44,202 nt of DNA from a virus (taxonomy: Duplodnaviria > Caudoviricetes): the IMG/VR virus record IMGVR_UViG_3300016675_000235, positions 1 through 44,202 of that record. One strand, written 5' to 3'. Position numbers and translations under genes: made by a program. Below the pieces are notes generated by a model that was not told the origin of the DNA, ran no database searches, and saw only the letters and a list, made by a program, of their open reading frames with translations. Position 1 is the first letter of the stretch. Each line of letters begins with the position of its first letter. Positions 7,956-31,929 of this stretch are shown piece after piece.

Positions 7956-8674
7956 TTGTCCTCTAGGTTAAATTCATTTTTGTCGAATACGGCTATCGTT
8001 GTGGACTTCGGTTGTTTCTGCTTTTCTGGCTTGAAATTCCGCATCCAATTGTTGAAGGAATTCTGCATTTCCGATATCGTATCGAATACCCTTTCCTCGT
8101 TGTACTCGATCCATTTTTTCAACTGGTCGTCCATCTGTTCGGTATTGACCGAATGTACCTTGGCAATTTTTGAAAAGAAATTTCCTGACAAGGAATTTTC
8201 ATTGAAAATTTGAAAAGCCTGCGAAGCTGTATATACAGTTTTATTGTTAATTGGTTTATTGTATAATTGTTTATCTATACTATCAGTGCTTTGTTGCGTG
8301 CTTTCTCTGTGCTTTGTTGCGTGCTTTATCAATGCTTTGTCAAGTGCTTTGTCAAGTGCTTTGTCAAAATTTGATAGAGCAATTATGTTGCTGGAGTATT
8401 GGTTCCTCGATTTTTCATACAAATCGAACAGCCCGAAATTGACAAGATCGTTAAAGGTGGCTATGTAGGTGTTGTAGCTTTTTATTCCGATTGCTTCCAT
8501 TACCATGGTCGTGGGAAGTCCGAACTTTTGCTTCCAGCCAAGCCTATTGCAATGCTCGATTGCGAAAAAGTACAGGGCGCAATGGTTCGGCTTTATCTTG
8601 TCCGGATTTTCAAACGCATAATCCCAAAACGCCCTTGATAGAGAATATGAGTCCATTTGGATTTGGTTAGTCAT
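7952..8674 (-). CDS. Putative replication initiator
   Basis: N-terminal wHTH-like region (ALYFFAIEHCNRLGWK..F..MEAIGIKSYNTY..L), repeat-encoded linker, helical C-terminus (FNNWMRN); contains iteron-like repeats; ATGA start at 8674. Confidence 0.65.
   Translation of the reverse strand: MTNQIQMDSYSLSRAFWDYAFENPDKIKPNHCALYFFAIEHCNRLGWKQKFGLPTTMVMEAIGIKSYNTYIATFNDLVNFGLFDLYEKSRNQYSSNIIALSNFDKALDKALDKALIKHATKHRESTQQSTDSIDKQLYNKPINNKTVYTASQAFQIFNENSLSGNFFSKIAKVHSVNTEQMDDQLKKWIEYNEERVFDTISEMQNSFNNWMRNFKPEKQKQPKSTTIAVFDKNEFNLEDK
8286..8367. repeat. Seven phased (G/A)TGCTTT repeats; candidate replication origin iterons
   Basis: Copies start at 8286, 8298, 8309, 8321, 8332, 8344, 8356 (11-12 nt spacing), next to an AT-rich tract at ~8230-8285. 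Confidence 0.7.
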
Positions 8675-8886
8675 TTCCTTTTTATGAAATACCTGTAATA
8701 GTGCTTTTGACAAAAACTTTTACTCCCCCATATCTGTCCCCCGCAAACCACGCAGCCAAATCCCTGTGGTTTGGAGGTCCTTTTGATCTGGTATATGAAT
8801 GCCACAGGAGCCTTGGTGATCTCCCTTACCTCCTTGACCTTATAGCCGAAATTCAGCAACCGCTTGATATGTTCAACGTCCTTCAT
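8671..8886 (-). CDS. Small HTH/zinc-finger hypothetical protein
   Basis: 71 aa; CVVC..FCQKHY motif. Confidence 0.65.
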   Translation of the reverse strand: MKDVEHIKRLLNFGYKVKEVREITKAPVAFIYQIKRTSKPQGFGCVVCGGQIWGSKSFCQKHYYRYFIKRK

Positions 8887-8890
8887 GGCG

Positions 8891-9025
8891 CTAAATCATC
8901 CGAATAATGAATAGAGCCAAAATTACGCCCAATAAGACGACTGCAAGCGATTTGAGCATCTTATACGTTTTTTCGGAGAAGTCTTGAAATTCGTCAAATT
9001 TGTAGGGGTTTTTGGGGTGTTTCAT
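8891..9025 (-). CDS. 44-aa C-terminal-TM peptide (not in ORF track)
   Basis: MKHPKNPYKFDEFQDFSEKTYKMLKSLAVVLLGVILALFIIRMI; preceded by AACAGGACAA motif; ATGA overlap. Confidence 0.65.
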   Translation of the reverse strand: MKHPKNPYKFDEFQDFSEKTYKMLKSLAVVLLGVILALFIIRMI

Positions 9026-9141
9026 GGCTTTGTCCTGTTTTTGCGTACAACAATCAGTAAAACCACGGCCAATGTGATGTTGGCCGTGGCAATTATGGTC
9101 CCGAACAGGGTTAATACAACCAAATCAAGTATTGGACTCAT
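9022..9141 (-). CDS. 39-aa membrane peptide (not in ORF track)
   Basis: MSPILDLVVLTLFGTIIATANITLAVVLLIVVRKNRTKP; fills the gap between DUF4494 and the next peptide. Confidence 0.55.
   Translation of the reverse strand: MSPILDLVVLTLFGTIIATANITLAVVLLIVVRKNRTKP
9030..9039 (-). repeat. AACAGGACAA motif copy before ATG 9025
   Basis: Minus strand AAAAACAGGACAAAGCCATG. Confidence 0.8.
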
Positions 9142-9559
9142 AGGGGAAAACTTCGAGTATTTTTGTCTCCACAACGTCGGGTACCTGAAATGAAACAAGC
9201 ATGTTTTTTAACGATTCCTGGATCCTCTCGTGCGCCTGGGGAACATCGGAGGCTGTCACAAGCATGTATTGAGTGACCTTCTTTTCTTTTCCTGAATCTG
9301 AATCTGCGACAATGTACTGGATTTTAGCCTTGAACCACGGATTCCCGTCTCCATGATCAAACACATCCACAATGTTGCTTTTTGCAATATGGGTGACTTG
9401 GAAGTCTCCCCGGACCCGTTCGCCCATTTCCTTGTAAATAATCGACTCTGCCTCGGTGAATGAAACCGCATCGAGAAGGTATTTTTCCGATACCCATTTA
9501 AGCAGTCCCTGTTCGTTTTCCTTTACGTACTTCACGCGCACTTCATACCATGTCCTCAT
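9125..9559 (-). CDS. DUF4494 family protein (Bacteroidota)
   Basis: MRTWYEVRVKY..ENEQG..VSEKYLLDAVSFTEAE..WFKAK..DSDSGKEKK..LV.A..ETKILEVFPY. Confidence 0.9.
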   Translation of the reverse strand: MRTWYEVRVKYVKENEQGLLKWVSEKYLLDAVSFTEAESIIYKEMGERVRGDFQVTHIAKSNIVDVFDHGDGNPWFKAKIQYIVADSDSGKEKKVTQYMLVTASDVPQAHERIQESLKNMLVSFQVPDVVETKILEVFPYESNT

Positions 9560-9570
9560 GATGTTGTTGT

Positions 9571-9747
9571 TTAAGAATGAATGATTGTAAGATTTGAGAT
9601 TTTCACGGGAAAACGCTCTCCGTGTGCGTCCTGCACGATGGCGACCGATCCGTTTTGGTTGACCACCGCCACCTTGTCGCCTTTCTTGCCAAATACCCTT
9701 TTCTTGTCCAAAGGTGAAATTTCGTCTTGGTTTAGATAGGCTTTCAT
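9571..9747 (-). CDS. 58-aa hypothetical protein (not in ORF track)
   Basis: MKAYLNQDEISPLDKKRVFGKKGDKVAVV..GERFPVK; TGATG overlap with upstream gene. Confidence 0.65.
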   Translation of the reverse strand: MKAYLNQDEISPLDKKRVFGKKGDKVAVVNQNGSVAIVQDAHGERFPVKISNLTIIHS

Positions 9748-10004
9748 CAGTAGTCTGTCATTGGTTTACCTCCCCTGTTTTTCGGCTGCCTGCCTAGAAG
9801 AAAATTGATTTCACATTCAGCGATGGCATCATTGTTTACTTCATACGACCACTTTTTCAGCATTTCGTTTTCGAATGAATTTACTACCGAATGCATGGCT
9901 TGTAATTCGTTTACGTCCGAATTCGATTCATTGAACCATTCCCTTAGAAAGGCGTAAATGGAAGCCGCTTCGTATGGAGTCAACTCTATTGTGATTTTTC
10001 CCAT
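9747..10004 (-). CDS. Hypothetical protein
   Basis: 85 aa, tightly packed in operon. Confidence 0.65.
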   Translation of the reverse strand: MGKITIELTPYEAASIYAFLREWFNESNSDVNELQAMHSVVNSFENEMLKKWSYEVNNDAIAECEINFLLGRQPKNRGGKPMTDY

Positions 10005-10005
10005 T

Positions 10006-10746
10006 TCAAAATGCTGTTTTGTTGATCTCTATTGATTTCCCCGGTTTTGCTATCTCGGGCCTGAATCCCACATGCTTGATGGTTTCCTCCACAAATACCT
10101 TTTCATCGGCATTGCCTGAGCTTAGGTGTATGTAAACTATCTTGTTTACCTTGGTTAGGTCGTTTGCTTTGAGGAATTCGATACTTGTTTCCAAACTCAT
10201 GTGCGAATTGAATACCCTGTCACGGACCATTGAGTTGATATCCCCGTCAACAAACCGTTGCATCATGATTTCCTTGGAGTAGTTAGCCTCCAGGATGATA
10301 TTGTTCAATCCCTCGAACTTGTATCCACAGTATGCCGTATCCGTGATGAATACCGCTTTGCCCATTTCCGGATGCTGGATCAGGAATCCGAAACTTGGAA
10401 CGTCGTGTTCCAGGTCAAACACCTTCACCGTAAACGATCCAACCTTTACCTGCTGCGCCCGCTCCAAAATGATGGCGTTGTAGTCCTTGATGGTCTTTTG
10501 CGACTCATGCACGTGTTTGTGTGCGTAAACCTTGATCCCATGCGACAATACGTCCTTAATACACTTGATGTGGTCCCCATGGGCATGGGAGGCAAAGGCA
10601 CCCACAACCTTTTGGAGGTCGAATCCAAGGGCTTTTTTGATCTTGGATACTGAAACCCCGCATTCAAGAATCAGTACTTCGCCAGAATCCGACTCCAAAA
10701 GGTATGAATTACCTGTTGAGCCACTACCTATAACTTGGAGGATCAT
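10006..10746 (-). CDS. MBL-fold metallo-hydrolase (YycJ/WalJ-like nuclease)
   Basis: GSGSTGNSY, SHAHGDH, HD, TDT, LEANY, HMS, HLS motifs. Confidence 0.9.
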   Translation of the reverse strand: MILQVIGSGSTGNSYLLESDSGEVLILECGVSVSKIKKALGFDLQKVVGAFASHAHGDHIKCIKDVLSHGIKVYAHKHVHESQKTIKDYNAIILERAQQVKVGSFTVKVFDLEHDVPSFGFLIQHPEMGKAVFITDTAYCGYKFEGLNNIILEANYSKEIMMQRFVDGDINSMVRDRVFNSHMSLETSIEFLKANDLTKVNKIVYIHLSSGNADEKVFVEETIKHVGFRPEIAKPGKSIEINKTAF

Positions 10747-10946
10747 ATCTTTTCGATTTCGAAAAACTCAAATTTCGAGCATTGGTGTATGGACCAATTT
10801 TGGATAAACGCTGCAGGAAGAACCGAAATGATGGCGTATGGCCCAAAACCAAACGCTACGGCTTTTTTGCCGATCGCAAGGCTATGTATATCCATGATGT
10901 TGGTTATCTTTTTGCCTAGCCTGTAATTTCTGGATACCTGAATCAT
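10743..10946 (-). CDS. Hypothetical protein
   Basis: 67 aa, ATGA overlaps on both sides. Confidence 0.6.
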   Translation of the reverse strand: MIQVSRNYRLGKKITNIMDIHSLAIGKKAVAFGFGPYAIISVLPAAFIQNWSIHQCSKFEFFEIEKI

Positions 10947-11146
10947 GTAAGATCAATTAACCTTTTGCTCATGATATTCCGAACCTCACTTGGCAGAACT
11001 CCTTTGTCCTCCAAGATATTACCGCCTTCATCAATATATTTCATCCCAGCCTCCAGGACCTTTATATCTGATTGAAGTCTTTGACAAAGAGCGTGCATAT
11101 CTCCACGCCTTTTGTCAATGTCCAATTTTTGTTGTGATGGTGTCAT
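10943..11146 (-). CDS. Hypothetical protein
   Basis: 67 aa, directly after recT. Confidence 0.6.
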   Translation of the reverse strand: MTPSQQKLDIDKRRGDMHALCQRLQSDIKVLEAGMKYIDEGGNILEDKGVLPSEVRNIMSKRLIDLT

Positions 11147-11149
11147 GTC

Positions 11150-12028
11150 CTAGAAATCCATTTTGGCTTGGGCCTGCTGCTTTGGTGTTTCGGGCTGCTG
11201 CGGCTCTGGTTTTTCCTCTACGATCGTCGCTTCCTCGTCAAAATCAATGGATACCGAATTTGCCTTTTGCTCCTTTGCCAATTTCATTGCCGCATCCGGA
11301 GCCGCCAAATCACTCTCGGAGTCATCATCCATGTTTTCGGATTCAACCGACGAGTTTATGGCGATTTTCAGGGCCCTTGAAATGGCTGTTTTCTTTGCCA
11401 TTTCCCCCGTGAATCCAGAATGCGCCGGGGAGCCTCCCTTTGCTGCACCCATGTTCCAGGATTTCTTGATTTCGGCCAATGTCATTTCCTCCAATCTTGA
11501 TGTGCCATCGGTGAAAATCACGATTGCATAGGCTCCCTTGATGTTTGCGTCGTCCCTGTTGTCAAAGGGACTGGTGTGCTTGATCAACCTCCTGCGCCCC
11601 GTGTCGGTGTTGATTTCGGAAACATACTCGTCCTTTGCGTAAATGACGTTTGCATTGACCTCCTTTACGCCAGCAATCCGCTTTGAAAGCGCAATTCCTC
11701 CCATGTAGGACCGCATGTAAACCAATTGGTTCCCAGCTACCATGAAGTAACATTGGTTCAGCGCAGGGTTCATTCCCTGTGTGACCATTTTGAGCATGCT
11801 GTTTGCCACGCTTCCCTTGGTACATACCTCCATGGCGGCCTTTCCGTTTTTGTCCTTTACGTCTTGAAGGACAAGGAATGCGCTTCTTATTGCATTCCCT
11901 ACGTGATACCCCGAAGGAAGCATGATGTTCCCTAGATTCACAAGGTTTTCCACCTGTGAAATGATTTGGTCTTGGAGTTCCTTTTTGGCGACCGCTGCTT
12001 GGTTTGTGTTTTCCGATACTTGTGTCAT
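11150..12028 (-). CDS. recT: RecT/Redbeta-family single-strand annealing protein
   Basis: SVAN..MVTQGMNP..QCYF..RSYMG..A.VIY..D..GAYA..MT..EI..SW..F..EMAKKTAI.RA.K. Confidence 0.9.
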   Translation of the reverse strand: MTQVSENTNQAAVAKKELQDQIISQVENLVNLGNIMLPSGYHVGNAIRSAFLVLQDVKDKNGKAAMEVCTKGSVANSMLKMVTQGMNPALNQCYFMVAGNQLVYMRSYMGGIALSKRIAGVKEVNANVIYAKDEYVSEINTDTGRRRLIKHTSPFDNRDDANIKGAYAIVIFTDGTSRLEEMTLAEIKKSWNMGAAKGGSPAHSGFTGEMAKKTAISRALKIAINSSVESENMDDDSESDLAAPDAAMKLAKEQKANSVSIDFDEEATIVEEKPEPQQPETPKQQAQAKMDF

Positions 12029-12036
12029 GAGTGAAA

Positions 12037-14061
12037 TTATTTGATGGTTAATGTCTCTGATTTTGGATCCACGATCAAGTTAATAATCTGTGTTTCCATT
12101 TTGGGGATGTTTGTGACCGACTCCCTGTTGTCGATGAATACTGGTAAATATAGGTTATAAAACCTGTTGAACGTCCTGATGATGTCCAATCCCGCCTGGA
12201 TTTGTCCTGCGTTGTTTAGCGACGGCCATGGAACGCCATCTTTTAGGCATTCGCAGATTTCGGTCACGTCGTCATTGGATAGGTTCTGCTCGAACATCTT
12301 CCATTTTACGATCTCGAATTTGGAGTTGATCTGCTGCTCAACCAATCCGATCCTTTTGATGGAGAACGCCTTGATAGCCCTTTCAAGCCCCTCAGCCTCC
12401 ACTATCTTGGCGGACAGGTTTTTCAGTTCTTGGTTAAGTTCATCGTTTCGCTTTTGTAGCTGCTCGATAACCCCTTTGTTGTGAAGGGATTTGTTGATAA
12501 GGTTTATCTGTTCTTGCAGTTCCCTTTTCTTCTGTGAAAGTTCGGATATTCCTTCGGTCGCAGGGAATACCTTGGATTCAAGCTCCATGATAAGATTGGT
12601 GGTTTCCGTGTAATCCAATCCAACATAGGATCTACAATCCGGAAGCTCAAGCGGATTTGCCTTCATTTCGGAAAGTTTTACATCAAGGGCCGATATCTCG
12701 TTTTGGGTTGCTTCCAATTGGGAAATGACCGTATTTTTTTCTTCTTCAAGACTGGACAACAAAGCTTCTGCGGCAATGATGTCGTTTTCAATCTTCACCA
12801 TGTTTTCCTTGGCTGTTTTACCAATCTTGTTGATTCTGTTTAATTCTTCCTCCTTGGTTTGGTTAAACTCCGTTTCCTTTTCCAATCCGTAATTGGCTAC
12901 TTCTGCCAATTTGCTACCGCAGTACGGGCAATTTCCTTTTAGGGTAAACTGTTCTGCGCTTTTCTTTGCAAATGTTTCCCGCAGATTGGCCAACTTTTCA
13001 GCAATGGCATCCTTATCCCTTTTCAATTCTGAGATATGGTTTTTGCCCCGTTCGATACGGGATTCGATCAACGCCAAATCATTGTTGATCCTGGTCTTTT
13101 TCGTCAACAAATCCGCAATGGCTGCTTGGGTATCGGTAAGGCCCTTGGTTGCAGCCTTTCCATGGTCGCTTGCTTTTTGCTTTGCCTCGCTTTCCAATTG
13201 AGCAACCTTGCGCTTGAGGTCAAAGATTTGGGTTTGGTTGTCAAGCTTCAACTGCTGCAGCTTTCTTTCCCTTTCTGCCACGTCGGAAATCTGCGCATCT
13301 ATCGACTGGATTTCCTTCGTCTTTTCCGCTACAATCGACTCCAATACCTCCCAATCCTCAACCTGCGGCATGTTCCTCATGTTCTCGTCAATCCGTTGTG
13401 GTATGCGGGCCTTTTCCTCCTCCAATGCCTTGCGTTCACGCTGCGCCTTTAGCTTGATGGCCGCAAAGTCCTTTTGGATTGCCAAAATATCCTCTAGTGT
13501 CTGGAATGATTTATCCTTTGGATTTTCAGCCTTTAGGATTGCAAGTACCTCAGCATCGGTGATGTTTGGCGCAAGCTTCAAAAGGATTGCCCTTTTCTCC
13601 TCTGTTTTGAGGGAATTGAAGAACAAGGGATTGGTGACGACCTTGAATGTTTCCTCGGTGAAAAACTCGGATACCTGTTTGTCGTAGTCCGTTTTTGTCG
13701 GGACCGGAAAACCATCTATGGCAAACTCCGTGGTGTGCCCCTTCAATATATCGGTTTTCTTGTCCCATTTTTGCAGATACGTCCGCTTGAAATCCCGTGG
13801 TGTGCCGTCGATTTCAAAAAATCCGTGTACCTCATGGTTTACCTTTTCTATTGGGTTGTTGTCGGCATCCAAGGTCTTGATGGCAAAATCCGCCCTACCT
13901 TTGCTGTCTTTGCCGAAGAACAGGTACCAAATTGAATCGAACAAGGTTGTTTTCCCGGCCTCGTTCCTGCCATGGATGTTTGTTTCCTCACTGAAATTCA
14001 TATCCAGTGACTTTACCCCTTTGAAAAAGGATAGTTTGAGTTGCTTTAACGTGATTTTCAT
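12037..14061 (-). CDS. Rad50/SbcC-like coiled-coil ABC ATPase
   Basis: Walker A GRNEAGKTT, long coiled coil with CPYC zinc hook, signature-like LNNAGQ, Walker B FIDNRES. Confidence 0.9.
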   Translation of the reverse strand: MKITLKQLKLSFFKGVKSLDMNFSEETNIHGRNEAGKTTLFDSIWYLFFGKDSKGRADFAIKTLDADNNPIEKVNHEVHGFFEIDGTPRDFKRTYLQKWDKKTDILKGHTTEFAIDGFPVPTKTDYDKQVSEFFTEETFKVVTNPLFFNSLKTEEKRAILLKLAPNITDAEVLAILKAENPKDKSFQTLEDILAIQKDFAAIKLKAQRERKALEEEKARIPQRIDENMRNMPQVEDWEVLESIVAEKTKEIQSIDAQISDVAERERKLQQLKLDNQTQIFDLKRKVAQLESEAKQKASDHGKAATKGLTDTQAAIADLLTKKTRINNDLALIESRIERGKNHISELKRDKDAIAEKLANLRETFAKKSAEQFTLKGNCPYCGSKLAEVANYGLEKETEFNQTKEEELNRINKIGKTAKENMVKIENDIIAAEALLSSLEEEKNTVISQLEATQNEISALDVKLSEMKANPLELPDCRSYVGLDYTETTNLIMELESKVFPATEGISELSQKKRELQEQINLINKSLHNKGVIEQLQKRNDELNQELKNLSAKIVEAEGLERAIKAFSIKRIGLVEQQINSKFEIVKWKMFEQNLSNDDVTEICECLKDGVPWPSLNNAGQIQAGLDIIRTFNRFYNLYLPVFIDNRESVTNIPKMETQIINLIVDPKSETLTIK

Positions 14062-14309
14062 GGTTCTATTTTTGTAAGTAAGTTGATGTAATCCTCTGTG
14101 TATTGAATATTCATATTGCAGTCATCCAACTGTCTCCAAAACAGTTGCCTTGCTTCGGGGTCATCCGAATCTACCAAGGCTTCAAGAATGAGCCTTTTTT
14201 CATTCAATAGTTGTTGATATAGGGAAAAGACCTTTTTGCGGTCGGGGTTCTCCTGCATAAGCATTTCCACAATAAGGGAATTGCGCTGCTCCAATGTAAA
14301 TTCCTGCAT
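14058..14309 (-). CDS. Hypothetical protein
   Basis: 83 aa, ATGA coupling to ATPase. Confidence 0.65.
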   Translation of the reverse strand: MQEFTLEQRNSLIVEMLMQENPDRKKVFSLYQQLLNEKRLILEALVDSDDPEARQLFWRQLDDCNMNIQYTEDYINLLTKIEP

Positions 14310-14327
14310 TGATTGTCTTGTTTAGTT

Positions 14328-14582
14328 TTATGGTTTTGGAAATACATTTTCAATTTCAATTCCGAAATAATCGCAAATGCTCTTCATCCAAAAACAGCAA
14401 TAGTTAGCCTTGAAGTAGCAAATAGTTGGATATTCTTCAATGGCATCCTTTATAAGTTCCCCAAACTCTTCCAAATCCCAATGGTATAGGAATAAGATCA
14501 CATCATCTTCTCCCTCATTTTTTTCCCAATGCCATTCAGGTTTGTTTTCCTGAATAAATTTAAACAATTGTAGTTCTGTCAT
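14328..14582 (-). CDS. Acidic hypothetical protein
   Basis: 84 aa; start preceded by the longest copy of the AACAGGACAA motif. Confidence 0.7.
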   Translation of the reverse strand: MTELQLFKFIQENKPEWHWEKNEGEDDVILFLYHWDLEEFGELIKDAIEEYPTICYFKANYCCFWMKSICDYFGIEIENVFPKP

Positions 14583-14597
14583 TTGTCCTGTTGTTGT
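14583..14597 (-). repeat. Extended motif copy ACAACAACAGGACAA abutting ATG 14582
   Basis: 15-nt perfect complement to the sRNA at 15249-15322. Confidence 0.85.
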
Positions 14598-14601
14598 TTG
14601 A

Positions 14602-14919
14602 TTAAAAATCCCGTAACTCTTGCTTTACGGTCGCCTGGTGTTTTTGCCTATCCTTGTAGCTTTCACCCCTTAATGAGGGCGTAAGCTCTTGGATTTTCTG
14701 CCTCATTCTCCTGATTGCCTCGGGACTGCTTAACGATGCAACCTCTTGAATCACTTTTCGCCTATTCACAAGTTCATTGGAATAGTTCTGCAGCCCTACT
14801 TTTTCAACAAGTTCCTGCTGCCAGATATTTTGGATCAGCCTCATATCGTCATCCCTGCAATGCGGATGCTCGATTAGGACCTTTTCAATCCTATTCCGAA
14901 GCTTCTTGTTCCTCAGCAT
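14602..14919 (-). CDS. Hypothetical protein
   Basis: 105 aa; L..HP..RDDD..L..IW and PEAIRRMRQKIQE motifs common in phage proteins. Confidence 0.7.
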   Translation of the reverse strand: MLRNKKLRNRIEKVLIEHPHCRDDDMRLIQNIWQQELVEKVGLQNYSNELVNRRKVIQEVASLSSPEAIRRMRQKIQELTPSLRGESYKDRQKHQATVKQELRDF

Positions 14920-15154
14920 TCAGCTTCTTCAATTTGGTTTTCAAATCCTTACGTCGCTGCGCCAACTCCGTAAGTACCTCAATCACGTCGTCATTCTCCG
15001 TAGTACCGGAGAGAACGGCATAAACCGATTGTCGGATCGGCGCTTTTTTTCCAGGGAATTTTTCTTTCCAGATTCTTTCAAAGTGGTGGTAGTATTTCCC
15101 TGGAAGCTGCTTTTTAAGCGTTTCCAAATCGTTTTGATCAAATAGTTTGTCCAT
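14891..15154 (-). CDS. Putative small DNA-binding regulator, first gene of the replication operon
   Basis: 87 aa; RQSVYAVLSG..N..VIE.L recognition-helix-like segment; position after promoter. Confidence 0.55.
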   Translation of the reverse strand: MDKLFDQNDLETLKKQLPGKYYHHFERIWKEKFPGKKAPIRQSVYAVLSGTTENDDVIEVLTELAQRRKDLKTKLKKLNAEEQEASE

Positions 15155-15186
15155 GCTAAATATAGGTTTGTTTGTAATTACACATT

Positions 15187-15194
15187 CAAATGTA
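15187..15194 (-). promoter_or_regulatory. -7 promoter element for the leftward replication operon
   Basis: TACATTTG matches TAnnTTTG, 32 nt before ATG 15154; -33 element not clear. Confidence 0.55.
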
Positions 15195-15248
15195 ATCTTT
15201 TCGATTTGATTTGGAAAAATTTTCTATAAAATTTATTTACGTAATGAC

Positions 15249-15280
15249 AAAAAATAAAGCCCGTCGATCAAAACGGGCTT
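15249..15280 (-). terminator. Intrinsic terminator of the sRNA
   Basis: AAGCCCGT-TTTGATCG-ACGGGCTT followed by TATTTTTT. Confidence 0.8.
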
Positions 15281-15322
15281 CGGGAGAAAAGTACAACAAC
15301 AGGACAATTGCGGACTTCTCTC
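15249..15322 (-). ncRNA. Candidate trans-acting antisense sRNA (~72 nt)
   Basis: Own promoter and terminator; stem GAGAGAAGU/ACUUUUCUC, upper stem GCAAU/GUUGU, apical loop UGUCCUGUU complementary to the repeated AACAGGACA start-site motif. Confidence 0.7.
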
Positions 15323-15324
15323 TG

Positions 15325-15354
15325 CAAAGATAAATACGTTTCCCGTTAAAACAA
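15325..15354 (-). promoter_or_regulatory. Consensus Bacteroidota promoter driving the sRNA
   Basis: TTG (15354-15352), 19-nt spacer, TATCTTTG (15332-15325) followed by CA. Confidence 0.75.
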
Positions 15355-15384
15355 CAAACCCCGAACATTTCTGCTCGGGGCTTT
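15348..15384 (-). terminator. Intrinsic terminator ending the tRNA/ncRNA transcript
   Basis: AAAGCCCCGAGCA-GAAA-TGTTCGGGGTTTGTTGTTTT with GNRA loop and G-U pairs on the minus strand. Confidence 0.8.
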
Positions 15385-15618
15385 GTGCTTGAATTTATCT
15401 TCGATTGGCTTGTCCAAGCAACTCCTTTTCCTTTTCAACCAAACCAATCTATTCGGCATTCGGGCCAAAACCTATCTTTGACACATGGTAGCTATATCCA
15501 CACATCAAAGCTCGCTGTAACGGGGAGACTCTACTTTCGTAGATACGTGCAAAAACCTGAATTAGCTAGTTTCAAATTGTCGCACTTGTGATTGCTCGCC
15601 TCCCCTTCCGGGGTTCAT
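15385..15618 (-). ncRNA. Candidate structured ncRNA downstream of tRNA-Met
   Basis: Helices GGGGAGGC/GUCUCCCC, GUGCGA/UUGCAC, UUUGAA/UUCAGG, UCUAC-GAAA-GUAGA, CUUUGAUGUGUGG/CCAUGUGUCAAAG, GAUUGGUUUG/CAAGCCAAUC; G-U pairs work only on the minus strand. Confidence 0.65.
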
Positions 15619-15619
15619 G

Positions 15620-15693
15620 TTGCGGTGGCAAGATTTGAACTTGCGATCTTTGGATTATGAGTCCAACGAAGACGGCCACTCCTCTACACCGCA
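15620..15693 (-). tRNA. tRNA-Met (CAT), initiator-like scaffold
   Basis: TGCGGTG/CACCGCA acceptor, GAGG/CTTC D stem, TTGGA-CTCATAA-TCCAA anticodon arm, GCAAG-TTCAAAT-CTTGC T arm; CCA not encoded. Confidence 0.93.
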
Positions 15694-15734
15694 TGTCAAA
15701 TTTGAAAGATAATTTTTACAAAAGCAACCCAATG

Positions 15735-16346
15735 TTACTTTTTTTTCAATGAAACCAAATTGATTTTGATGTTTGCTGTAATCAACGGATCATTAAGATA
15801 CCTTGGCCTTGGCGTGTAGTCCACGTTTGCCATAAATCCGTTGCCCAGGTATGCAGCACCGATTTGGTAATCGAATTGGTTGGAGAATCCGCCACCGACA
15901 AAAATACCCTTTTGGATGATGGTTGTCTCCGCCGTTTTTTCGGTTGTGATCGTATTGGTGACTACCGGTATTCTGAAATCGGTCCGCAGGCTTGTTTTCC
16001 TTACCTCCCCGAGGACTTCTCCTTCAAAATAGGCATTTCCATACAAAAGCGGGAACGTGGCTGAAAACGCCTGGATTTTCGGCACATATCCCGGAGCAAG
16101 TATGGTGTCACGCAATACGGTATGCTTGATTTCAACCTTTGGCTTTTTGCCCAATGCTATTTCCAAGGAATCCGCATAATTGGATAGTGCGGAATATTCG
16201 GCCAACAAGGTTGAATCCACCCTTGTTTCTATTTTGGTGTGTTCCTTGTAAACAGTATCGACAACTGGATCCAATAAGAGTCTTGCAATCACAAACCCGG
16301 CGATCCCCCCGAGAATCAAAATAGCGATGTATGGGTAGTATTTCAT
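15735..16346 (-). CDS. Membrane-anchored lysis accessory protein (spanin-like position)
   Basis: N-terminal TM, C-terminal beta-strand GIFVGGG..YQIGAAY pattern; TAATG coupled to endolysin. Confidence 0.55.
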   Translation of the reverse strand: MKYYPYIAILILGGIAGFVIARLLLDPVVDTVYKEHTKIETRVDSTLLAEYSALSNYADSLEIALGKKPKVEIKHTVLRDTILAPGYVPKIQAFSATFPLLYGNAYFEGEVLGEVRKTSLRTDFRIPVVTNTITTEKTAETTIIQKGIFVGGGFSNQFDYQIGAAYLGNGFMANVDYTPRPRYLNDPLITANIKINLVSLKKK

Positions 16347-16717
16347 TACCATCTTGCTTTAGTACCACGGATATCATAATGAACCCAGGATGGGTATGCC
16401 TTTAATCCTCCCTGGGGGATTTTTCCTTCGGCAATCAATCTTTCGACAATTGCCGCAACTACGATTGGAGCCATGCCTTGCACCTTAAAATCCGCAGCAA
16501 TACCTTGCATGTGTGTAGAATTCGAGGCCCCGCCAACCGCACGGTTGTGCGCAGGTGATCGGTAGCCCGATGTAATTGAAATTGGTGCTTTGACCGTATC
16601 TCTAATGACTTGCAGGGCGGCAGCAAATCGGCGTAGATTTTCAATTATTTCGGGAGGAAATTCGGCACCGTCTTTGGATGCGAATTCACTCAGATTAAAA
16701 TTTTCCGTTAGTTTCAT
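16346..16717 (-). CDS. Endolysin, peptidase M15 family
   Basis: NFNLSEF, SGYRSPAHN..VGGA..S.H..G.AADF, WVHYDIRG zinc-binding motifs. Confidence 0.9.
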   Translation of the reverse strand: MKLTENFNLSEFASKDGAEFPPEIIENLRRFAAALQVIRDTVKAPISITSGYRSPAHNRAVGGASNSTHMQGIAADFKVQGMAPIVVAAIVERLIAEGKIPQGGLKAYPSWVHYDIRGTKARW

Positions 16718-17144
16718 CCTGTCCTATTTTTTCCTTTCGTTTCATTTCAAACTTGTCCAACAAATACTTGATCGGCTCCCATGGATAGATTTTGTATATG
16801 GTATTGAGTATGCCTACTCCAAGGAATCCCAAAAGTACGCTGTAAAATCCCGAATTTATCCAGTCAATCACTATTCCCGCCTCAATCTTGACCGATGCCA
16901 AATCAATGATACCCAAACAAATTACCGTCATTGTGGTGGCAAAGGTCTTTTTTCCAAACTCCGTCAAACCTTCAATTACGGTATAATTTTCCTTCACCAA
17001 GGCAAGAATTACCAATGTCAGGCCGTCCAGGATCAACAATAGCAGGATTGATACGATGAAATTCCAATCGTTGAAGACATACTTTTCAACGAAAAACACA
17101 ATTGGGGTAAAGGCTAGGGATTTGATCAAAGGAAAATCATTCAT
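16695..17144 (-). CDS. Holin
   Basis: 3-4 hydrophobic segments, charged C-terminus, directly upstream of endolysin; ATG 17144. Confidence 0.75.
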   Translation of the reverse strand: MNDFPLIKSLAFTPIVFFVEKYVFNDWNFIVSILLLLILDGLTLVILALVKENYTVIEGLTEFGKKTFATTMTVICLGIIDLASVKIEAGIVIDWINSGFYSVLLGFLGVGILNTIYKIYPWEPIKYLLDKFEMKRKEKIGQDETNGKF

Positions 17145-17163
17145 GGAATTGTGGTTTAACGAC

Positions 17164-17192
17164 AAAAGGGCTACCGTTGCCGATAGCCCTTT
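17164..17192 (-). terminator. Hairpin/terminator upstream of lysis cassette
   Basis: AAAGGGCTATCG-GCAA-CGGTAGCCCTTTTG on the minus strand. Confidence 0.6.
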
Positions 17193-17245
17193 GGGGTATT
17201 ATTTATGAATGTAAATTAATAATTATTTATTCATCAAACCAAATT

Positions 17246-17680
17246 TTAATTTGATTTTGCGGTTTGGTTTTCAGAGCTTTCCTCCTCCTGCAAATCCTCT
17301 TTGATAAATTTCGAAATCATTTGAGCAATCGGTATCCTGATCATTCCGGTATTGTTCAGATCAAGCCACCTCATAGCCTCTCTCAGATCATTGCTGTTCA
17401 TTGCTACTGGTGGATTTTTCAATCTGAATTTTTCAATAATCGGATCGGCCACGGCACCGATAAAATTGTTGTGCATAAAATCATGCACTTGCTTGGCTTG
17501 CTTTTCATCCAAGTCCAGCCTGAAACTCTTTGGTTTTTGCGCTAGCCGTTGGAGTCTTGCCGCTCCTACCATTGCCGGCAGCTCTTTCCTTGGAGTTTTG
17601 TTTTCTGTCTCCTCGCTAAAAGGCAGATTTTCCCTTTCGGCTGACTCCTGAATAACTGGTTTTTTTTGGTCTTTTTTCAT
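17246..17680 (-). CDS. Hypothetical protein
   Basis: 144 aa between tail genes and lysis cassette. Confidence 0.65.
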   Translation of the reverse strand: MKKDQKKPVIQESAERENLPFSEETENKTPRKELPAMVGAARLQRLAQKPKSFRLDLDEKQAKQVHDFMHNNFIGAVADPIIEKFRLKNPPVAMNSNDLREAMRWLDLNNTGMIRIPIAQMISKFIKEDLQEEESSENQTAKSN

Positions 17681-17746
17681 GATCTTTTTTTTTCGGTTAA
17701 TATAATAGATTTTTTGCTTGGCTTGACATGGTTTGTATGATTTTAG

Positions 17747-19501
17747 TTAAACGATTGGCTCTGATGGTATTCTAAATACTCTAGTCCCTGTAGATGGTGG
17801 TGGTGTGAATGGTTCAAATACCGCTTCGAGTGTCACGTTTTCTGAGGGCATGAGATAATTAAAATTAGCCACAAGCGAAACGGTAGAATCATTGCTAACT
17901 CTGCGCCAACGGACAAAGCGAAAGCCTGTGTTTGCCGTTGCAATCAAATTTACTACTGCGCTAGGTATGTATTCACCGCCCGAAGTATTGACCGTCCCGC
18001 CTATTACAGCCTGTACAGTTAGTGTATTGGTTGGATTTTCAAGTAGGTCTATCTCTCCCGTCACATGGAAATAAAGAACTCTGTACACATTATGAATCAC
18101 ATCATTATCATAGTCAACTGATCCACCATATTGTGAAAGTTGAATGCCCTGTGGCCCTTTTCCAAAAATGATGTATCGCTCTGGATTGGCTATTTTTGTA
18201 CTTGCAGTCGTGTAGTCATATGATGTTGATAGTGCATACTTTGTGGTAAACCAAGATGGGAGCCTATGCGGTAGCGGCCCCGATAGTATTGTTTCCGAAC
18301 CGACATTTAAATCTGGATAACCGCCAACGTCTGATGGCCTATCAATTAACCCTAAAATGCCCGATACAGAGCCTCTTTTTGTGACTGGTAATGGTGGATT
18401 GTTAAGATTTGTAAGGTCTGGATTTGTAAGGTATGTTATCCACTCGTTGATTAATCTTTGGTCAACAACATCTCTCCTATGAGGGCCGCATTTTGACTGG
18501 ATAATCAAGTCAGATTGAGCTACTGTTTCGTCAAAGTCATAAGTCCATCCGATTGAAAAAGGAGTATTTTTTACAACCGTGTCACGCCAAAGCGTAGTGT
18601 TTGTACCGTTTGATCCTGCTATCCCTTGTTTTTGACTCTCGACATCTGCGGCAATTGTCGGCCTATTTCTGAGCACATTACCAAAAGGATAGACCCCAGG
18701 CAAATTAGATTCCTCAGACCCAATAAATCTCAAAAACTGTTGTGTGATGCCAGATACGTTTGTTGCGTTGGTTGGGGTGTAACTGTTTTTTATCAAATTC
18801 AACATTTTTACCGTATCACCAAGATATGATGGGCGAAACACCCAATTGAAAAGTGCATTATTTCTAAAGTCCAACAATCCGTCTGCGAGGTTTCTTGGAT
18901 TTTGGAATAATGGGTGCCGATCCCATCCGCTCGAAAAAAAGTTGTGATGAAATGCAATATTCTTTGCCCCCCATAAACCACAAAAGCCATGAACACCTTT
19001 TGAGTGTCCCGCGTCGTGCATTGGCTCGGCAATAATGCAATATTGAACAATTGCGTTTTGGGCGGCAAGTGAAAGTGTCTCATCATTTCCCCAAGTAAAC
19101 GAGCTATGATCTATGATAAAATCAGAATTGTCCAATCCCCCAGATTGAGCAACTGCCGAAAATGCATCGCCTTCACTTGTGGTAACGCCACGCCTTACTT
19201 TTAAGTCACGAACTATAAAATTGTTGACACCCGCAAATGCAATTTGGCCGTCGCGTAGCGCAAAACCTCCATTAGGAGCCAAAGCGCCCAAAAATTCAAA
19301 TCCTCCCCGAGTTGTACCTGTGACTGTAAAGTTTGGTATTGATTCATAACCAGATACAATCGGAATGATAATTCTTTCCCCTGTTTGGAGAAAAGCATTT
19401 TGAGCCGTTGTGGTTGAATCAACGAATATTACACGCCCGTCATTTGCCGCATTAATGTTTTGGCTTGGCCCGTTAGCTGTTGGAAATGGTCTATATGGCA
19501 T
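17747..19501 (-). CDS. PL1 pectate-lyase-like beta-helix protein with C-terminal bacterial repeat domain; candidate depolymerase
   Basis: IIDHSSFTWGNDETLS, H.KG.H..GLWG, FHHN..RHP, DFRNN..FNW, IDRPSDVGGYP.L; C-terminal A.ANTGFRFVRW..MP.ENVTLEAVF. Confidence 0.85.
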   Translation of the reverse strand: MPYRPFPTANGPSQNINAANDGRVIFVDSTTTAQNAFLQTGERIIIPIVSGYESIPNFTVTGTTRGGFEFLGALAPNGGFALRDGQIAFAGVNNFIVRDLKVRRGVTTSEGDAFSAVAQSGGLDNSDFIIDHSSFTWGNDETLSLAAQNAIVQYCIIAEPMHDAGHSKGVHGFCGLWGAKNIAFHHNFFSSGWDRHPLFQNPRNLADGLLDFRNNALFNWVFRPSYLGDTVKMLNLIKNSYTPTNATNVSGITQQFLRFIGSEESNLPGVYPFGNVLRNRPTIAADVESQKQGIAGSNGTNTTLWRDTVVKNTPFSIGWTYDFDETVAQSDLIIQSKCGPHRRDVVDQRLINEWITYLTNPDLTNLNNPPLPVTKRGSVSGILGLIDRPSDVGGYPDLNVGSETILSGPLPHRLPSWFTTKYALSTSYDYTTASTKIANPERYIIFGKGPQGIQLSQYGGSVDYDNDVIHNVYRVLYFHVTGEIDLLENPTNTLTVQAVIGGTVNTSGGEYIPSAVVNLIATANTGFRFVRWRRVSNDSTVSLVANFNYLMPSENVTLEAVFEPFTPPPSTGTRVFRIPSEPIV

Positions 19502-19504
19502 GAT

Positions 19505-22500
19505 TTACGCCCCCCATGCGTTTGCTAGTGCTTGGCCATCAGCTTCAGGCACATCCCTATTGAACAATAACAGCCTATTTCGCTCACTTGGCCTTCCTGC
19601 CGATGCCGTAGCGGAGTCAGCATTGAGCCTGTAGGCATTGTTGCCCAAAGCAGCATTGATTAACCCCCCGTTGGTGATAGATGCTATTGATGCCCACCCT
19701 AGTGACTTTGGCGTACATTGCCTGTATATATTGACATGAGTTACCGACCCGACACGCCTAACCCTTAACATAAAAAAGTACATCGTATTGTCATTGGCAA
19801 TTACCTCAGTAGATGTAGTAGTGGCTGTAAATGAAGTTCTAGCGGCATTTCCGCACTGAAAACTTATCACTCTTGTGCTTAAAAGCCGAAAATTAAACCC
19901 ACGTCTGTTAACCCCGTCATCTGTTGATGTGGCTAGAATAGGTCTTGCAAGGTTGTCGGCTCCCCCATCCCAAGACATAAATGCGATGATTGTAAAGTTT
20001 TCCGTGATGCTATCGTGGAGCCTTTGCATTAAGGCAAAATCGAGCCTTGATCTAACCGAGAAGTTACCACTGCCACCTACATCAGTCTGTCTGAATACAA
20101 ACTTCCCGCCCCTCAACACATAAGAGGTTCCCGCCGTTGGGTTTTGCAGTGTGGTATCAACATCATTAGAATAAATGGATGTATTAACAATTGAATTTGT
20201 ATCAATCGGACTTGAGTTTTCGTCAAAGTTCAATTGCACCAAAAGACTGAAATCAGGCTTGGTCGTATCCTCGTTGCCATTGGTAATGTTTTTTATCGAG
20301 CAGATGACAATGTTTTTTGGCGGGAAAGGCGTGCCATCATCCCAATACTTGTGGAATGTGAATGTGAGCCGATTCAAGTTGTTTACACCTGTCAGGTATG
20401 AATCTCCTGTGACAAACAACCAAGTGGGTCTTGTTCCCCATTCTTGCCATCCAACTATTTCAACCACTTCTGTATAATCAGATATTAGTCCATTAGCCAC
20501 TCCATTATATCTCCAAGCTGACGTGCTGCCAGTGTAATAATAATGTGACCCATTTACCTGAGAACCTTGGCCTGCTAGCATAGCGGCCTGATTATCGTAT
20601 ATAGAAAGAGGGGAGATAGGTTTTGCGGCAACCAAAATATTTGGTGTTAAAGAAGCGCAGTGATATACTATCCTTTGGTTTTTATCCCTCCCGTTTGTCC
20701 TATCAACCGACAAAAAATGATAAATTGGATCGGTTTCGCTTCCGTGCTCCCCGCTTGATGCAAATGAAACGGTAAAGGCTGTGAATCTGTCCAAAATAGA
20801 CTGTATAGTAGCTACCCCCGCCGATACATTGAACTGATTTGCGTTGGTTTCGGCAACTTCTTCTCCTATTTTTTCCTCCACCTCACTCCTCTTCAACAAC
20901 TTATTCCCAGCACTTGCTGTCCCCTCATGCACCGGCTTCGATACCAAAAAAGCGTCCGTATTAACTCCGTCGATTGGCTCTAAGGCCACTACCTCCTGCC
21001 CTTCCGAGGTTTGCATACTGACTTCAAGACCTTTTAAATCACCAATCTCAAACTGCCATGACTCATTGAACCTTAGCCCCCATTGGACACCATCTATGGT
21101 TAGATAGTTGTATCCCATATTGAAAGTAAATAGTCCATTTGCGCCGCCAGCGCCCCCGGTCATAGCGATCATACTGGTATCGGCAAACATACCGTTACCA
21201 CCGCTCTGCATCAGGGCTGTCCCGTTACCTACCACCAACAGATCGCTGGAATTAGACGGATCAAACACTAAACCGTTTGTCCTATCGAAGCTGAACCTAA
21301 CAGCCCCATCAATCACCCAACTATGCGCCCCACTCAAAAATTGGTAGAAATCATCCGCAAAACCCATCTGATAAAGCGGCGTGCTTGGCGTGAATGTCAA
21401 ATAGGCAGCATACGGATCTCCCGCTACTATCGCAGCATCCACGTAGGCTTTATCCACCAACGACCGTGCTGTGAAGTTGGCTGAGTAGTCGGCATCATAA
21501 GCCAACCCAGCCTGATTAATTGAATCTCGGAATACCGATGTAACCACCCCAAGATTGTTTTCAATCCTGATTCCAACCGTCCCAAGGCCGTCAAAGTATT
21601 CAAAAAGAAAAGTGTCCTCTATACCCAAGGCATTTGTTAGCAGAGAGGATGAAATTAACCCAGCTCTTGAATTTATCTGTGTGTTCAATGCTGCGTTTGA
21701 TAGCAACTGATCAACACCGGAAAAGGAGGAAAACTCAGCCCCTGCTGTGACTGTATCGCTCCCGTCAATAACCTCACTGGAGTACTGAAAGACCTTCTCA
21801 AGTGCCGAGTCAATGAAGGTAAGCGTATTTCCATCTCCCAATATAATCCTTCCCTCTCCGTCCACACCGAGCCCGGCTCCCGCCAATGCTGATCCATTGA
21901 TATCGCTGATTTTTGCGGCCTTGTCGCCTGGGGTTGTACCCCCTATGTAGCTTTGTTCCTCTAGGATTAAATTTGCGGTACCACGGTCAAAAAAACTGGT
22001 TGTTTTCAGTGTTCTTTGGAAAATTAGATTTGTAGGATCAAACCAACCAACCAAAGAGTTAATGATTGCTCCTGTAAACAAAGCTGTGGCTCTTCCAGTT
22101 GTTGCAGATGATCCACCAAGAAATATACCTGAATTCTCTATGAACGGGGTCATAAAAGAAGTCATGTTTCCTGATGCAGCTATGGTTGTTGTTCCTATTT
22201 GACTTTTTGACCAAATACAATAAAGTGGTCCATATATAGTAGAAGATATTACATGGTCGTGCAACGTGGAATTATGGAGCCGCCCAAAAAACGATGATTG
22301 GACTTCCCTTTCAAGCGTGGTCCAAACAAAATCCTGGGAGAACATATTGTTGAACGACTCTGATCCAATTTTTGAACCCCAGCAAACCGCCTGGAACGTC
22401 ATGTTGTACGATCCGTGATCTATACGTGAATTTCTTGCCGATCCAATAAAAAGGATGTTGTTTCCTGTGTTTACCGCAGATTGATCCTCCAGGGAAATGT

Positions 22501-23476: not shown

Positions 23477-23477
23477 C

Positions 23478-23726
23478 TCAGTTCAGTACTATATAAATTG
23501 CCACAAATGGAGACTCTTGCCTAATCCTGATATCCAGCGTCGAGGTATCTACAAACACCTCCACCGAAATCATGTGCCCTACACTGTCATACACCTGCAC
23601 GTTTGGAATAGAATTCAATCCGTGCTGGGCCTGACTTATAATTGTTTCGGCCTGCGATGGGGAAAAAAACACTTGCTGTCTTTCCGCCTTTGGTCCGCAA
23701 CATGGATTCAACATTATAAGTCCCAT
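23478..23726 (-). CDS. Small tail-associated protein (HxLxxxPxVxV domain)
   Basis: QHGLNSIPNVQVYD matches two repeats at the C-terminus of the upstream gene. Confidence 0.65.
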   Translation of the reverse strand: MGLIMLNPCCGPKAERQQVFFSPSQAETIISQAQHGLNSIPNVQVYDSVGHMISVEVFVDTSTLDIRIRQESPFVAIYIVLN

Positions 23727-23728
23727 AC

Positions 23729-27160: not shown

Positions 27161-27161
27161 T

Positions 27162-27746: not shown

Positions 27747-27747
27747 G

Positions 27748-28812: not shown

Positions 28813-28818
28813 TTCAAG

Positions 28819-29331: not shown

Positions 29332-29362
29332 TGTTGTGTTGCAGTATTTTGTTTTGAAATAT

Positions 29363-29392
29363 AGGGCGGGACTGTATCAACGGCCCCGCCCT
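29363..29392 (-). terminator. GC-rich hairpin after major capsid gene
   Basis: AGGGCGGG..CCCGCCCT stem, weak U-tract; probably a partial terminator or mRNA stabiliser. Confidence 0.55.
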
Positions 29393-29398
29393 CAATTA

Positions 29399-30778: not shown

Positions 30779-30820
30779 TGGTTGGTATTTGTTTTTAGTT
30801 GGTTTGTTCTCTATTCTTTA

Positions 30821-31861: not shown

Positions 31862-31878
31862 AAGCGTTGTTTTAAATG

Positions 31879-31929
31879 CAAAAAGGCCCTGCCTTCCACT
31901 ATCGGAAAGCAGGGCCTCAGAAGGCTTTT
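31879..31929 (-). promoter_or_regulatory. Terminator-like hairpin in the leader of the head operon
   Basis: AGGCCCTGCTTTCC-GATAGT-GGAAGGCAGGGCCT-TTTTG ending ~18 nt before ATG 31861. Confidence 0.65.

What the first reader, a model, noticed from the sequence alone, without database searches (positions are those of the whole stretch)
15385..15618. Unassigned multi-stem ncRNA with two identical palindromic loops (UAGCUA)
Seen on the minus strand between tRNA-Met and a terminator: a junction closed by GGGGAGGC/GUCUCCCC (15605-15598/15529-15522) that holds a long hairpin (loop ACUAGCUAA) and a GAAA-tetraloop hairpin. It is followed by a 13-bp G-U-rich hairpin (loop AUAUAGCUA) and a 10-bp hairpin with a purine-rich loop. 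Both loops carry the self-complementary UAGCUA (15563-15568 and 15489-15494). Inference: an intramolecular kissing pseudoknot, or hand-in-hand oligomerisation as in phi29 pRNA. tRNA-linked phage ncRNAs such as GOLLD and ROOL are much longer, and I cannot assign this one to a family.
Basis: partly seen in the sequence, partly recalled or inferred. Interest (0 to 1): 0.72.

Follow-up and report, generated by a model that had tools for sequence, protein, structure and literature searches.

The report
Phage RNA with twin palindromic loops
An uncultured phage carries, right behind its tRNA-Met gene, a roughly 265-base stretch that turns up on its own in two environmental RNA datasets, matches no Rfam family, and is predicted to fold into two hairpins with the same self-complementary loop, which would likely let copies of the RNA stick to one another.

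Summary
On the minus strand, between tRNA-Met (15693-15620) and a terminator (15383-15356), lies a predicted three-way junction (RNA z -4.84; much weaker on the plus strand or as DNA) and three hairpins. Two 9-nt loops carry UAGCUA; 0 of 2506 shuffles and no other of 1604 phage windows show this. I add a predicted 3' H-type pseudoknot. Two metatranscriptomes from different studies each give one contig inside the element and no other near-identical piece in 16 kb, a weak but independent sign of a stable RNA. No Rfam family matches, the antisense 68-codon frame has no relatives, and the phage has a conventional small terminase, so a pRNA role is unlikely. No diverged homologue was found, so covariation is untested. 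Best reading: a late, tRNA-processed RNA that self-associates through interchangeable palindromic kissing loops, as the twin loops of MoMuLV RNA do. It would be a new family among the multimerising phage RNAs (manA, GOLLD, ROOL). Oligomerisation and function are inferred, not shown.

The parts
15735..16352 (-). Last gene of the lysis block (205 aa, N-terminal membrane segment, DUF6808-like; probably spanin-type, inferred from position). It ends 41 nt before the tRNA.
   Evidence: upstream endolysin (Peptidase_M15_3) and holin-like gene
15620..15693 (-). tRNA-Met(CAU); CCA end not encoded; U1-A72 and A11-U24 look initiator-like (determinants recalled)
15356..15619 (-). Predicted ncRNA, about 265 nt, from the tRNA 3' end to the terminator
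   Evidence: RNA contigs 15374-15593 (X18) and 15424-15588 (X19)
15522..15605 (-). Three-way junction: P1 15605-15598/15529-15522; P2 15585-15571/15561-15547 with one C.U mismatch; P3 15543-15539/15534-15530 with GAAA loop, directly abutting P1
   Evidence: z -4.84
15562..15570 (-). Loop L2 (9 nt, 2+6+1 layout) holding the palindrome UAGCUA at 15568-15563
15476..15510 (-). P4, 13 bp with four G-U pairs in a row; loop L4 15497-15489 holds the same palindrome at 15494-15489
15452..15469 (-). P5, 6-bp hairpin
15386..15449 (-). Predicted H-type pseudoknot: P6 15449-15440/15412-15403 (10 bp), purine-rich L1 15439-15421, P7 15420-15413/15393-15386 (8 bp), A-rich 9-nt L3
   Evidence: 35 of 20000 shuffles with the second stem abutting the first; found post hoc
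15356..15383 (-). Intrinsic terminator
15250..15354 (-). Separate downstream unit: TTG...TATCTTTG promoter match (15354/15332), then a ~75-nt two-hairpin RNA ending in a terminator (15281-15256)
   Evidence: z -6.32, terminator included
14891..15154 (-). First early gene (87 aa, unnamed Bacteroidota family) behind a TAnnTTTG match at 15194; the operon runs on to SbcC-like and RecT genes
15385..15591 (+). 68-codon antisense frame, judged not a gene

Best explanation
The element is likely a stable non-coding RNA of about 265 nt, likely cut from a late tRNA-Met transcript, whose two identical palindromic loops are predicted to kiss the loops of other copies so that it would form a closed dimer or small ring. 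Shown: the sequence layout, the twin palindromes, the terminator, and RNA-library contigs confined to the element. Predicted: the fold and the 3' pseudoknot. Inferred: transcription by read-through from the lysis block or from an imperfect promoter just before the tRNA; release by tRNA 3' processing, since CCA is not encoded; 6-bp L2/L4 kisses between molecules (L2-L4' plus L4-L2', as in MoMuLV SL1/SL2), which could refold to an extended duplex; and protection of the 3' end by the pseudoknot. The assembly would act as a multivalent scaffold late in infection, like other tRNA-linked phage RNAs; its partner is unknown.
For: Twin palindromic loops: 0 of 2506 shuffles; 1 of 1604 phage windows, the element itself; 0 of 120 and 0 of 120 pattern-matched viral loci put both hexamers in loops. 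The two arms share nothing beyond the hexamer (alignment score 1, reached by 1979 of 2000 shuffles), so a recent duplication does not explain it. An internal 6-bp kiss needs no palindrome (1 in 64 would be one by chance; arithmetic). The fold is RNA- and strand-specific (12 of 82 pairs are G-U). 2 of 2 RNA runs, from two studies, lie only at 15374-15593 and 15424-15588 with 0 and 2 differences and no loose ends, while DNA run X2 runs through on a 20,374-base contig and DNA run X10, at similar low depth, has cover in 24 of 30 bins. Predicted loop-loop duplexes are -5.7 to -7.1 kcal/mol; the homodimer gains 10.9 kcal/mol in cofold (no shuffle control). A rough distance estimate makes a coaxial internal kiss strained: 73-118 A needed, about 71 A of linker. 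No terminator or canonical promoter lies between tRNA and element. Precedents: MoMuLV SL1-SL2' cross-kissing (PMC7357161, section 2.2); manA, ROOL and GOLLD multimers.
Against: No diverged homologue was found, so no covariation supports any helix or the loops. UAGCUA has only two G-C pairs, weaker than the HIV-1 DIS palindrome, and L4 has no 3' flanking purine, which DIS needs; its last two bases are only about 0.6 unpaired. A side-by-side internal contact needs only about 28 A and is reachable. The RNA contigs are shallow (depth 2.4 and 5.2), cannot show strand, ends or level, came from runs chosen because they share words with 14900-16400, and end at different 3' places; those runs show no other piece of this phage, so its presence in them is not established. 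The whole-element fold is only moderately significant (z -2.42). The pseudoknot was found post hoc, and its 5' strand has a rival 7-bp partner at 15597-15591. One earlier scan note says similar loops in another phage RNA lay in the part that is not conserved (e1-5833364, untested).
Confidence: 0.5

Rival explanations
1. The RNA is real but monomeric: L2 pairs with L4 inside one molecule, and the kiss happens to be palindromic, or monomer and dimer are in equilibrium with the monomer dominant.
For: L2-L4 is the only 6-bp loop-loop match among the free segments. Two complementary loops arise in only 4 of 2506 shuffles. A side-by-side geometry is within reach of the 11-nt linker.
Against: It does not explain the palindrome (1 in 64 by chance). 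A coaxial kiss needs 73-118 A against about 71 A of linker (rough estimate).
Confidence: 0.2
2. The two loops, and perhaps the purine-rich pseudoknot loop, are repeated binding sites for a protein, so that the RNA acts as a sponge or decoy, for example against a host defence RNase in the manner of pseudo-ToxI.
For: The same hexamer is shown twice on unrelated stems. The 3' domain is a predicted H-type pseudoknot, the fold of type III antitoxins, and a phage pseudo-ToxI suppresses ToxN (PMC5086642, passages).
Against: No tandem repeats (0 rows; only weak two-copy repeats). No Rfam antitoxin match at E<=10. No toxin-like neighbour was named. A protein site need not be palindromic.
Confidence: 0.14
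3. It is a structured tRNA trailer or stability element, and the matching palindromes are chance.
For: It lies directly behind a tRNA and before a terminator. 148 of 2506 shuffles have one palindromic loop. A genome-wide scan selects rare coincidences. P4 alone is not significant.
Against: 0 of 2506 shuffles and 0 of 1603 other phage windows show twin palindromes. RNA contigs persist over the element in two studies.
Confidence: 0.08
4. It is an RNA regulator of the lysis/lysogeny decision (c4- or P4 CI-like; both recalled), pairing through its loops with early transcripts.
For: In three cultured Bacteroidota phages, divergent genes and an integrase lie upstream of the SbcC-RecT operon, with a named repressor in one. 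Here tRNA, this RNA and a small RNA fill that place, and no integrase or repressor was named among 51 ORFs.
Against: The other four TAGCTA sites (5375, 20809, 34670, 40131) lie in ORFs and none is in the early leader. A crude duplex scan gave no standout target for the pseudoknot loop. The record is only 57% complete, so an integrase may lie elsewhere.
Confidence: 0.04
5. It is a translated + strand gene (15385-15591) or a DNA-level hairpin site, not an RNA.
For: A 68-codon frame exists and a TAnnTTTG match lies at 15473.
Against: 0 relatives among 1,835,955,588 proteins; no Pfam or PHROG hit; 201 of 2000 shuffles give such a frame. The promoter match lies inside the frame, lacks an upstream TTG and is one of 21 on that strand. 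DNA folds are weak and lose P2.
Confidence: 0.02
6. It is a prohead RNA like phi29 pRNA, forming a ring in the packaging motor.
For: Three-way junction plus two pairing loops.
Against: No RF00044 match at E<=10. The loops are identical palindromes, not two distinct complementary loops. The phage has a small terminase subunit and a P22-like portal; phi29-type motors lack a small terminase (recalled).
Confidence: 0.02

Closest known systems
MoMuLV dimer linkage SL1/SL2 (SL-C/SL-D) (PMC7357161, section 2.2 read)
   Same: Two hairpins in one RNA with the same self-complementary loop, pairing crosswise between two molecules (SL1-SL2', SL2-SL1'). Closest mechanical model.
   Different: Retroviral genome element with 2-bp GACG kisses on adjacent hairpins. 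Here the 6-nt palindromes sit in 9-nt loops, one on a three-way junction, in a stand-alone phage RNA. No homology is claimed.
HIV-1 DIS (PMC7357161, passages)
   Same: 6-nt palindrome in an apical loop; L2 has a 2+6+1 layout; refolding to an extended duplex is predicted.
   Different: One loop, not two; GC-richer palindrome; strictly conserved flanking purines, which L4 lacks on its 3' side.
manA RNA, RF01745 (bioRxiv 10.64898/2026.07.01.735769, parts 1-2 of 5 read)
   Same: Phage-borne RNA of about 200 nt that builds closed oligomers through intermolecular kissing loops.
   Different: No model match. Its kisses join differently numbered loops (L5-L7', L8-L9').
GOLLD RF02032 and ROOL RF03087 (PMC12286853, passages)
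   Same: Phage RNAs near tRNA genes; GOLLD env-38 lies behind a tRNA-Met; symmetric kissing loops; function unknown.
   Different: Several hundred nt longer and far more ornate; no model match at the element.
ARRPOF (PMC12990946, passages)
   Same: 255 nt, pseudoknotted, homodimeric through kissing loops.
   Different: Fusobacterium plasmid RNA with four pseudoknots; no match in the all-Rfam scan.
phi29 pRNA, RF00044
   Same: Three-way junction and loop-loop multimerisation.
   Different: Distinct complementary loops and a phi29-type motor; no match.
Theta ribozymes (PMC10879173, passages)
   Same: Structured RNA directly behind a phage tRNA.
   Different: No HDV-like fold starting at the tRNA end; much longer.

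Membership tests
Any Rfam 15 family | Covariance-model match at or above the gathering score | tested here: not met
   Whole window: only tRNA and permuted tmRNA. Over 15100-15760 at E<=10, only weak partial matches (9.8-15.8 bits) of unrelated families touch the element, all far below their cut-offs.
manA (RF01745) | Match to the family model | tested here: not met
   0 matches at E<=10 in the own record; no candidate in the first look
manA / GOLLD / ROOL / ARRPOF kind | Protein-free homo-oligomer through kissing loops | not testable with these tools
   Needs native gels or cryo-EM; only energies were computed
GOLLD (RF02032) | Conserved 3' domain of about 400 nt matching the model | tested here: not met
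   Only a 7.8-bit, 21-nt hit elsewhere (4824-4844), cut-off 150; the element is 265 nt
GOLLD / ROOL | Phage location near tRNA genes | tested here: met
   Directly behind tRNA-Met in a phage record
ROOL (RF03087) | Match to the family model, about 570 nt | tested here: not met
   No match (no control genome rang in 111, so that call alone is weak); the element is under half the length
EGFOA (RF02955) | Match to the family model | tested here: not met
   Only an 8.6-bit hit at 16907-17008, cut-off 37.7
phi29 pRNA (RF00044) | Match to the family model | tested here: not met
phi29 pRNA (RF00044) | Two distinct complementary loops, head to tail | tested here: not met
   The loops are identical palindromes
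phi29 pRNA (RF00044) | Bound to proheads and needed for packaging | not testable with these tools
   A small terminase (PF03592) and a P22-like portal argue against the need
Theta (HDV-like) ribozyme | Cleavage site within 5 nt of the tRNA 3' end and an HDV-like double pseudoknot | tested here: not met
   A relaxed descriptor written from memory gave one overlapping hit starting 16 nt from the tRNA, with a purine-rich L3, that would break P2 and P4; definition
Type III antitoxin / pseudo-ToxI | H-type pseudoknot | tested here: inconclusive
   Predicted from one sequence; no covariation
Type III antitoxin / pseudo-ToxI | Tandem repeats of about 35 nt ahead of a toxin gene | tested here: not met
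Conserved structured RNA in general | Covarying base pairs across homologues | tested here: inconclusive
   No diverged homologue found; near-identical copies only, and the variant table for X2 and X10 was cut

The most novel reading that the evidence does not exclude
Because both loops carry the same palindrome, any loop can kiss any other. Each molecule is then a two-handed monomer that polymerises into rings, open chains or a condensate late in infection: a natural self-assembling RNA with interchangeable sticky ends. With the 258-nt jumbo-phage RNA noted earlier in this scan (pseudoknot plus twin same-palindrome hairpins, e1-5650944, untested here), it may belong to an unrecognised class of about 260-nt 'pseudoknot plus twin palindrome' phage RNAs.
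Probability: 0.2. Interest if true: 0.85.

Novelty: new variant of a known kind. Interest (0 to 1): 0.6.

Why it matters
Cryo-EM has recently shown that phage RNAs of unknown function (GOLLD, ROOL, manA) build protein-free cages through kissing loops, and what they do is open. This RNA is short, can be made in vitro at once, and makes a sharp prediction: twin identical palindromes allow a monomer, a cross-kissed dimer or a polymer, and a few loop mutants tell these apart. A positive result would add a new assembly rule to natural RNA multimers and a small model for why phages place such RNAs behind tRNAs.

Tried and rejected
Homologue hunts, all empty for the RNA: blastn against phages and plasmids (only terminator or tRNA pieces); viral pattern scans (6 of 64 parts scanned, 57 of 64 parts, 0 hits); one metagenome pattern scan (5 hits, none similar by nhmmer or model). 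Neighbour-protein scans: searches were empty; one search gave 11 loci without tRNA; one search gave G001, whose record had no match to the lysis genes and no tRNA; one search gave one locus that ends at the gene. A one-sequence covariance model hit nothing else in 25 sources or in 47 of 49 records given (49 of the 96 loci first listed; no positive control other than the window). GTDB genomes could not be searched by kinship because no bacterial handle was obtained. Uncovered parts in the RNA runs are not taken as proof of silence. Rejected: the alternative 5' hairpin at 15613-15602 (pair probability 0.01); hairpin duplication; a hammerhead core; a telomerase-like template reading of the purine loop (its 12-mer occurs once in the window, and no reverse transcriptase was named among 51 ORFs). 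Literature: searches listed no paper describing this RNA. In the supplements of the viral candidate-RNA catalogue PMC10690425, six motifs had no hit in the files searched; files 1, 2 and 4 and three oversized files could not be searched, so a listing there is not excluded. The bioRxiv supplements were not seen.

Full report
Setting. The window is a 44,202-base linear virus record, 57% complete. It encodes a small terminase, a P22-like portal, an SU10-type capsid protein, RecT and an SbcC-like protein. A capsid relative at 60% identity lies in Algoriphagus assemblies, and the only cultured phages with a related capsid or portal are three Bacteroides phages, so the host is probably a Bacteroidota bacterium (inference). 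The element sits on the minus strand at the joint between the lysis block (holin-like gene, M15 endolysin, a DUF6808-like membrane protein) and the early operon.

Observation. tRNA-Met ends at 15620 with no encoded CCA and a terminator lies at 15383-15356. The junction folds at z -4.84 as minus-strand RNA, -2.09 as plus-strand RNA and -1.70 as DNA, where P2 is lost. The whole 234 nt are only moderately stable (z -2.42; 42 of 2506 shuffles), and P4 alone is not significant. The twin palindrome is the rare feature: 0 of 2506 shuffles, 1 of 1604 windows of this phage and relative G001, which is the element itself, and 0 of 240 viral loci picked for holding the hexamer twice. The two arms are not copies of each other.

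New part. The strongest helix among the unpaired segments joins the 3' end of the last loop (15420-15413) to 15393-15386, 8 bp, -8.3 kcal/mol. With P6 this gives an H-type pseudoknot with no gap between the stems and a 9-nt A-rich loop, ending two bases before the terminator. Shuffles give such a stem in 335 of 20000 cases, and abutting the first stem in 35 of 20000. It was found post hoc, and the same strand has a rival 7-bp partner at 15597-15591.

Expression. Of 21 listed runs, 2 are RNA runs, from different studies. Each gave one contig inside the element: 15374-15593 (0 differences) and 15424-15588 (2 differences), with no loose ends. Over 8000-24000 they show nothing else except a 35-base piece and a tRNA arm, both with foreign flanks, whereas DNA run X2 runs through on a 20,374-base contig and DNA run X10 has cover in 24 of 30 bins. 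This is a weak hint: depth is 2.4 and 5.2, contigs give no strand or ends, the runs were found with 14900-16400, and the phage is not otherwise shown in them. Within that 1.5 kb both fall in the element and not in the flanking genes. In X2 the piece 14582-17308 differs at 41 of 2727 bases, against 37 of 737, 79 of 1414, 147 of 3171 and 143 of 2171 in other pieces, but it includes genes and the variant table was cut, so it does not isolate the RNA.

Not a + strand gene. The 68-codon frame has no relative among 1,835,955,588 proteins, and 201 of 2000 shuffles give such a frame. The TATCTTTG at 15473 lies inside the frame, lacks an upstream TTG and is one of 21 matches on that strand. The TAnnTTTG consensus is confirmed in PMC9723704 (passages); the TTG element is recalled.

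Homologues. None was found. Neighbour-based scans either failed or reached records without this region. Covariation, the test that would settle the structure, could not be run.

Mechanism. No terminator or canonical promoter separates tRNA and element, so the RNA is likely co-transcribed with the tRNA, by read-through from the lysis block or from an imperfect promoter, and released by tRNA 3' processing (inference). An internal kiss would work with any complementary pair, and only 1 in 64 such pairs is palindromic. Two separate homodimer contacts would not need the same palindrome. Identical palindromes fit interchangeable pairing between molecules. A rough distance estimate makes a coaxial internal kiss strained (73-118 A needed, about 71 A available) but allows a side-by-side one (28 A). 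Predicted loop duplexes are -5.7 to -7.1 kcal/mol, and cofolding favours a dimer by 10.9 kcal/mol, without a shuffle control. Against this, the hexamer is AU-rich and L4 lacks the 3' purine that HIV-1 DIS needs. I give intermolecular self-association 0.5, an internal kiss 0.2, a protein decoy 0.14, chance palindromes 0.08, RNA-based lysogeny control 0.04, a gene or DNA site 0.02 and pRNA 0.02. The lysogeny idea comes from synteny: phi18:3, phi19:3 and BS-TP4 have divergent genes and an integrase upstream of SbcC-RecT, where this phage has the tRNA and two RNAs, but no loop target lies in the early leader.

Comparison. It works most like the MoMuLV SL1/SL2 pair, whose identical loops cross-kiss between two molecules (PMC7357161, section 2.2 and passages). 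In setting it resembles GOLLD and ROOL (PMC12286853, passages), manA (bioRxiv 10.64898/2026.07.01.735769, parts 1-2 of 5) and ARRPOF (PMC12990946, passages). It is not a member of manA, pRNA, GOLLD, EGFOA or ROOL or of any Rfam family, not a theta ribozyme (PMC10879173, passages) and not a type III antitoxin array (PMC5086642, passages). Searches listed no description of it; other papers in those lists were seen as listings only. The alignment files of PMC10690425 (passages read) could not be searched. An earlier scan note describes a 258-nt phage RNA with a pseudoknot and twin same-palindrome hairpins; it is a lead, not support.

Verdict. A real, probably expressed, unassigned phage RNA with an unusual and testable design: a new variant of the multimerising tRNA-linked phage RNAs. 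Interest 0.6, held down by the lack of covariation and of any direct sign of oligomers.

Noticed in passing
window 36213-36578 (+): A permuted (two-piece) tmRNA: RF04321 at 56.4 bits against a cut-off of 47, tag GKTVLISRPVARVAA*, among phage genes. No close phage record. At the syntenic place in G001 ARAGORN called none.
   Followed up: partly
window 36160-36244 (+): A tRNA-like stretch just before the tmRNA, with a 7-bp acceptor-like stem and a T-loop, not called by ARAGORN or Rfam; fold not significant (z -0.64).
   Followed up: partly
window 15250-15354 (-): A second small RNA candidate with a full Bacteroidota promoter match, a 5' hairpin and its own terminator (z -6.32). Its best duplex in the window is at about 24961 (+), -40.9 kcal/mol against a mean of -17.5, sd 4.7, accessibility ignored.
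   Followed up: partly
window 14891-15740: No integrase or repressor was named among 51 ORFs, though cultured relatives have an integrase upstream of the same early operon; tRNA and RNAs fill the place.
   Followed up: partly
window 40996-44199 (-); G001 20074-37119: Large polyvalent protein (LPD38, ART-PolyVal domains), cut by the window end; the G001 counterpart has 5681 aa.
   Followed up: no
window 9746-10006, 10742-11143, 14313-14582, 17743-21830: A related strain (run X2) lacks three small early genes and has a different tail-fibre region.
   Followed up: no
L150, L181, L201, L208 (between tRNA-Lys and tRNA-Asp): A structured spacer shared by four large phages, with visible stem changes in one hairpin; unrelated to this element by nhmmer.
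   Followed up: no
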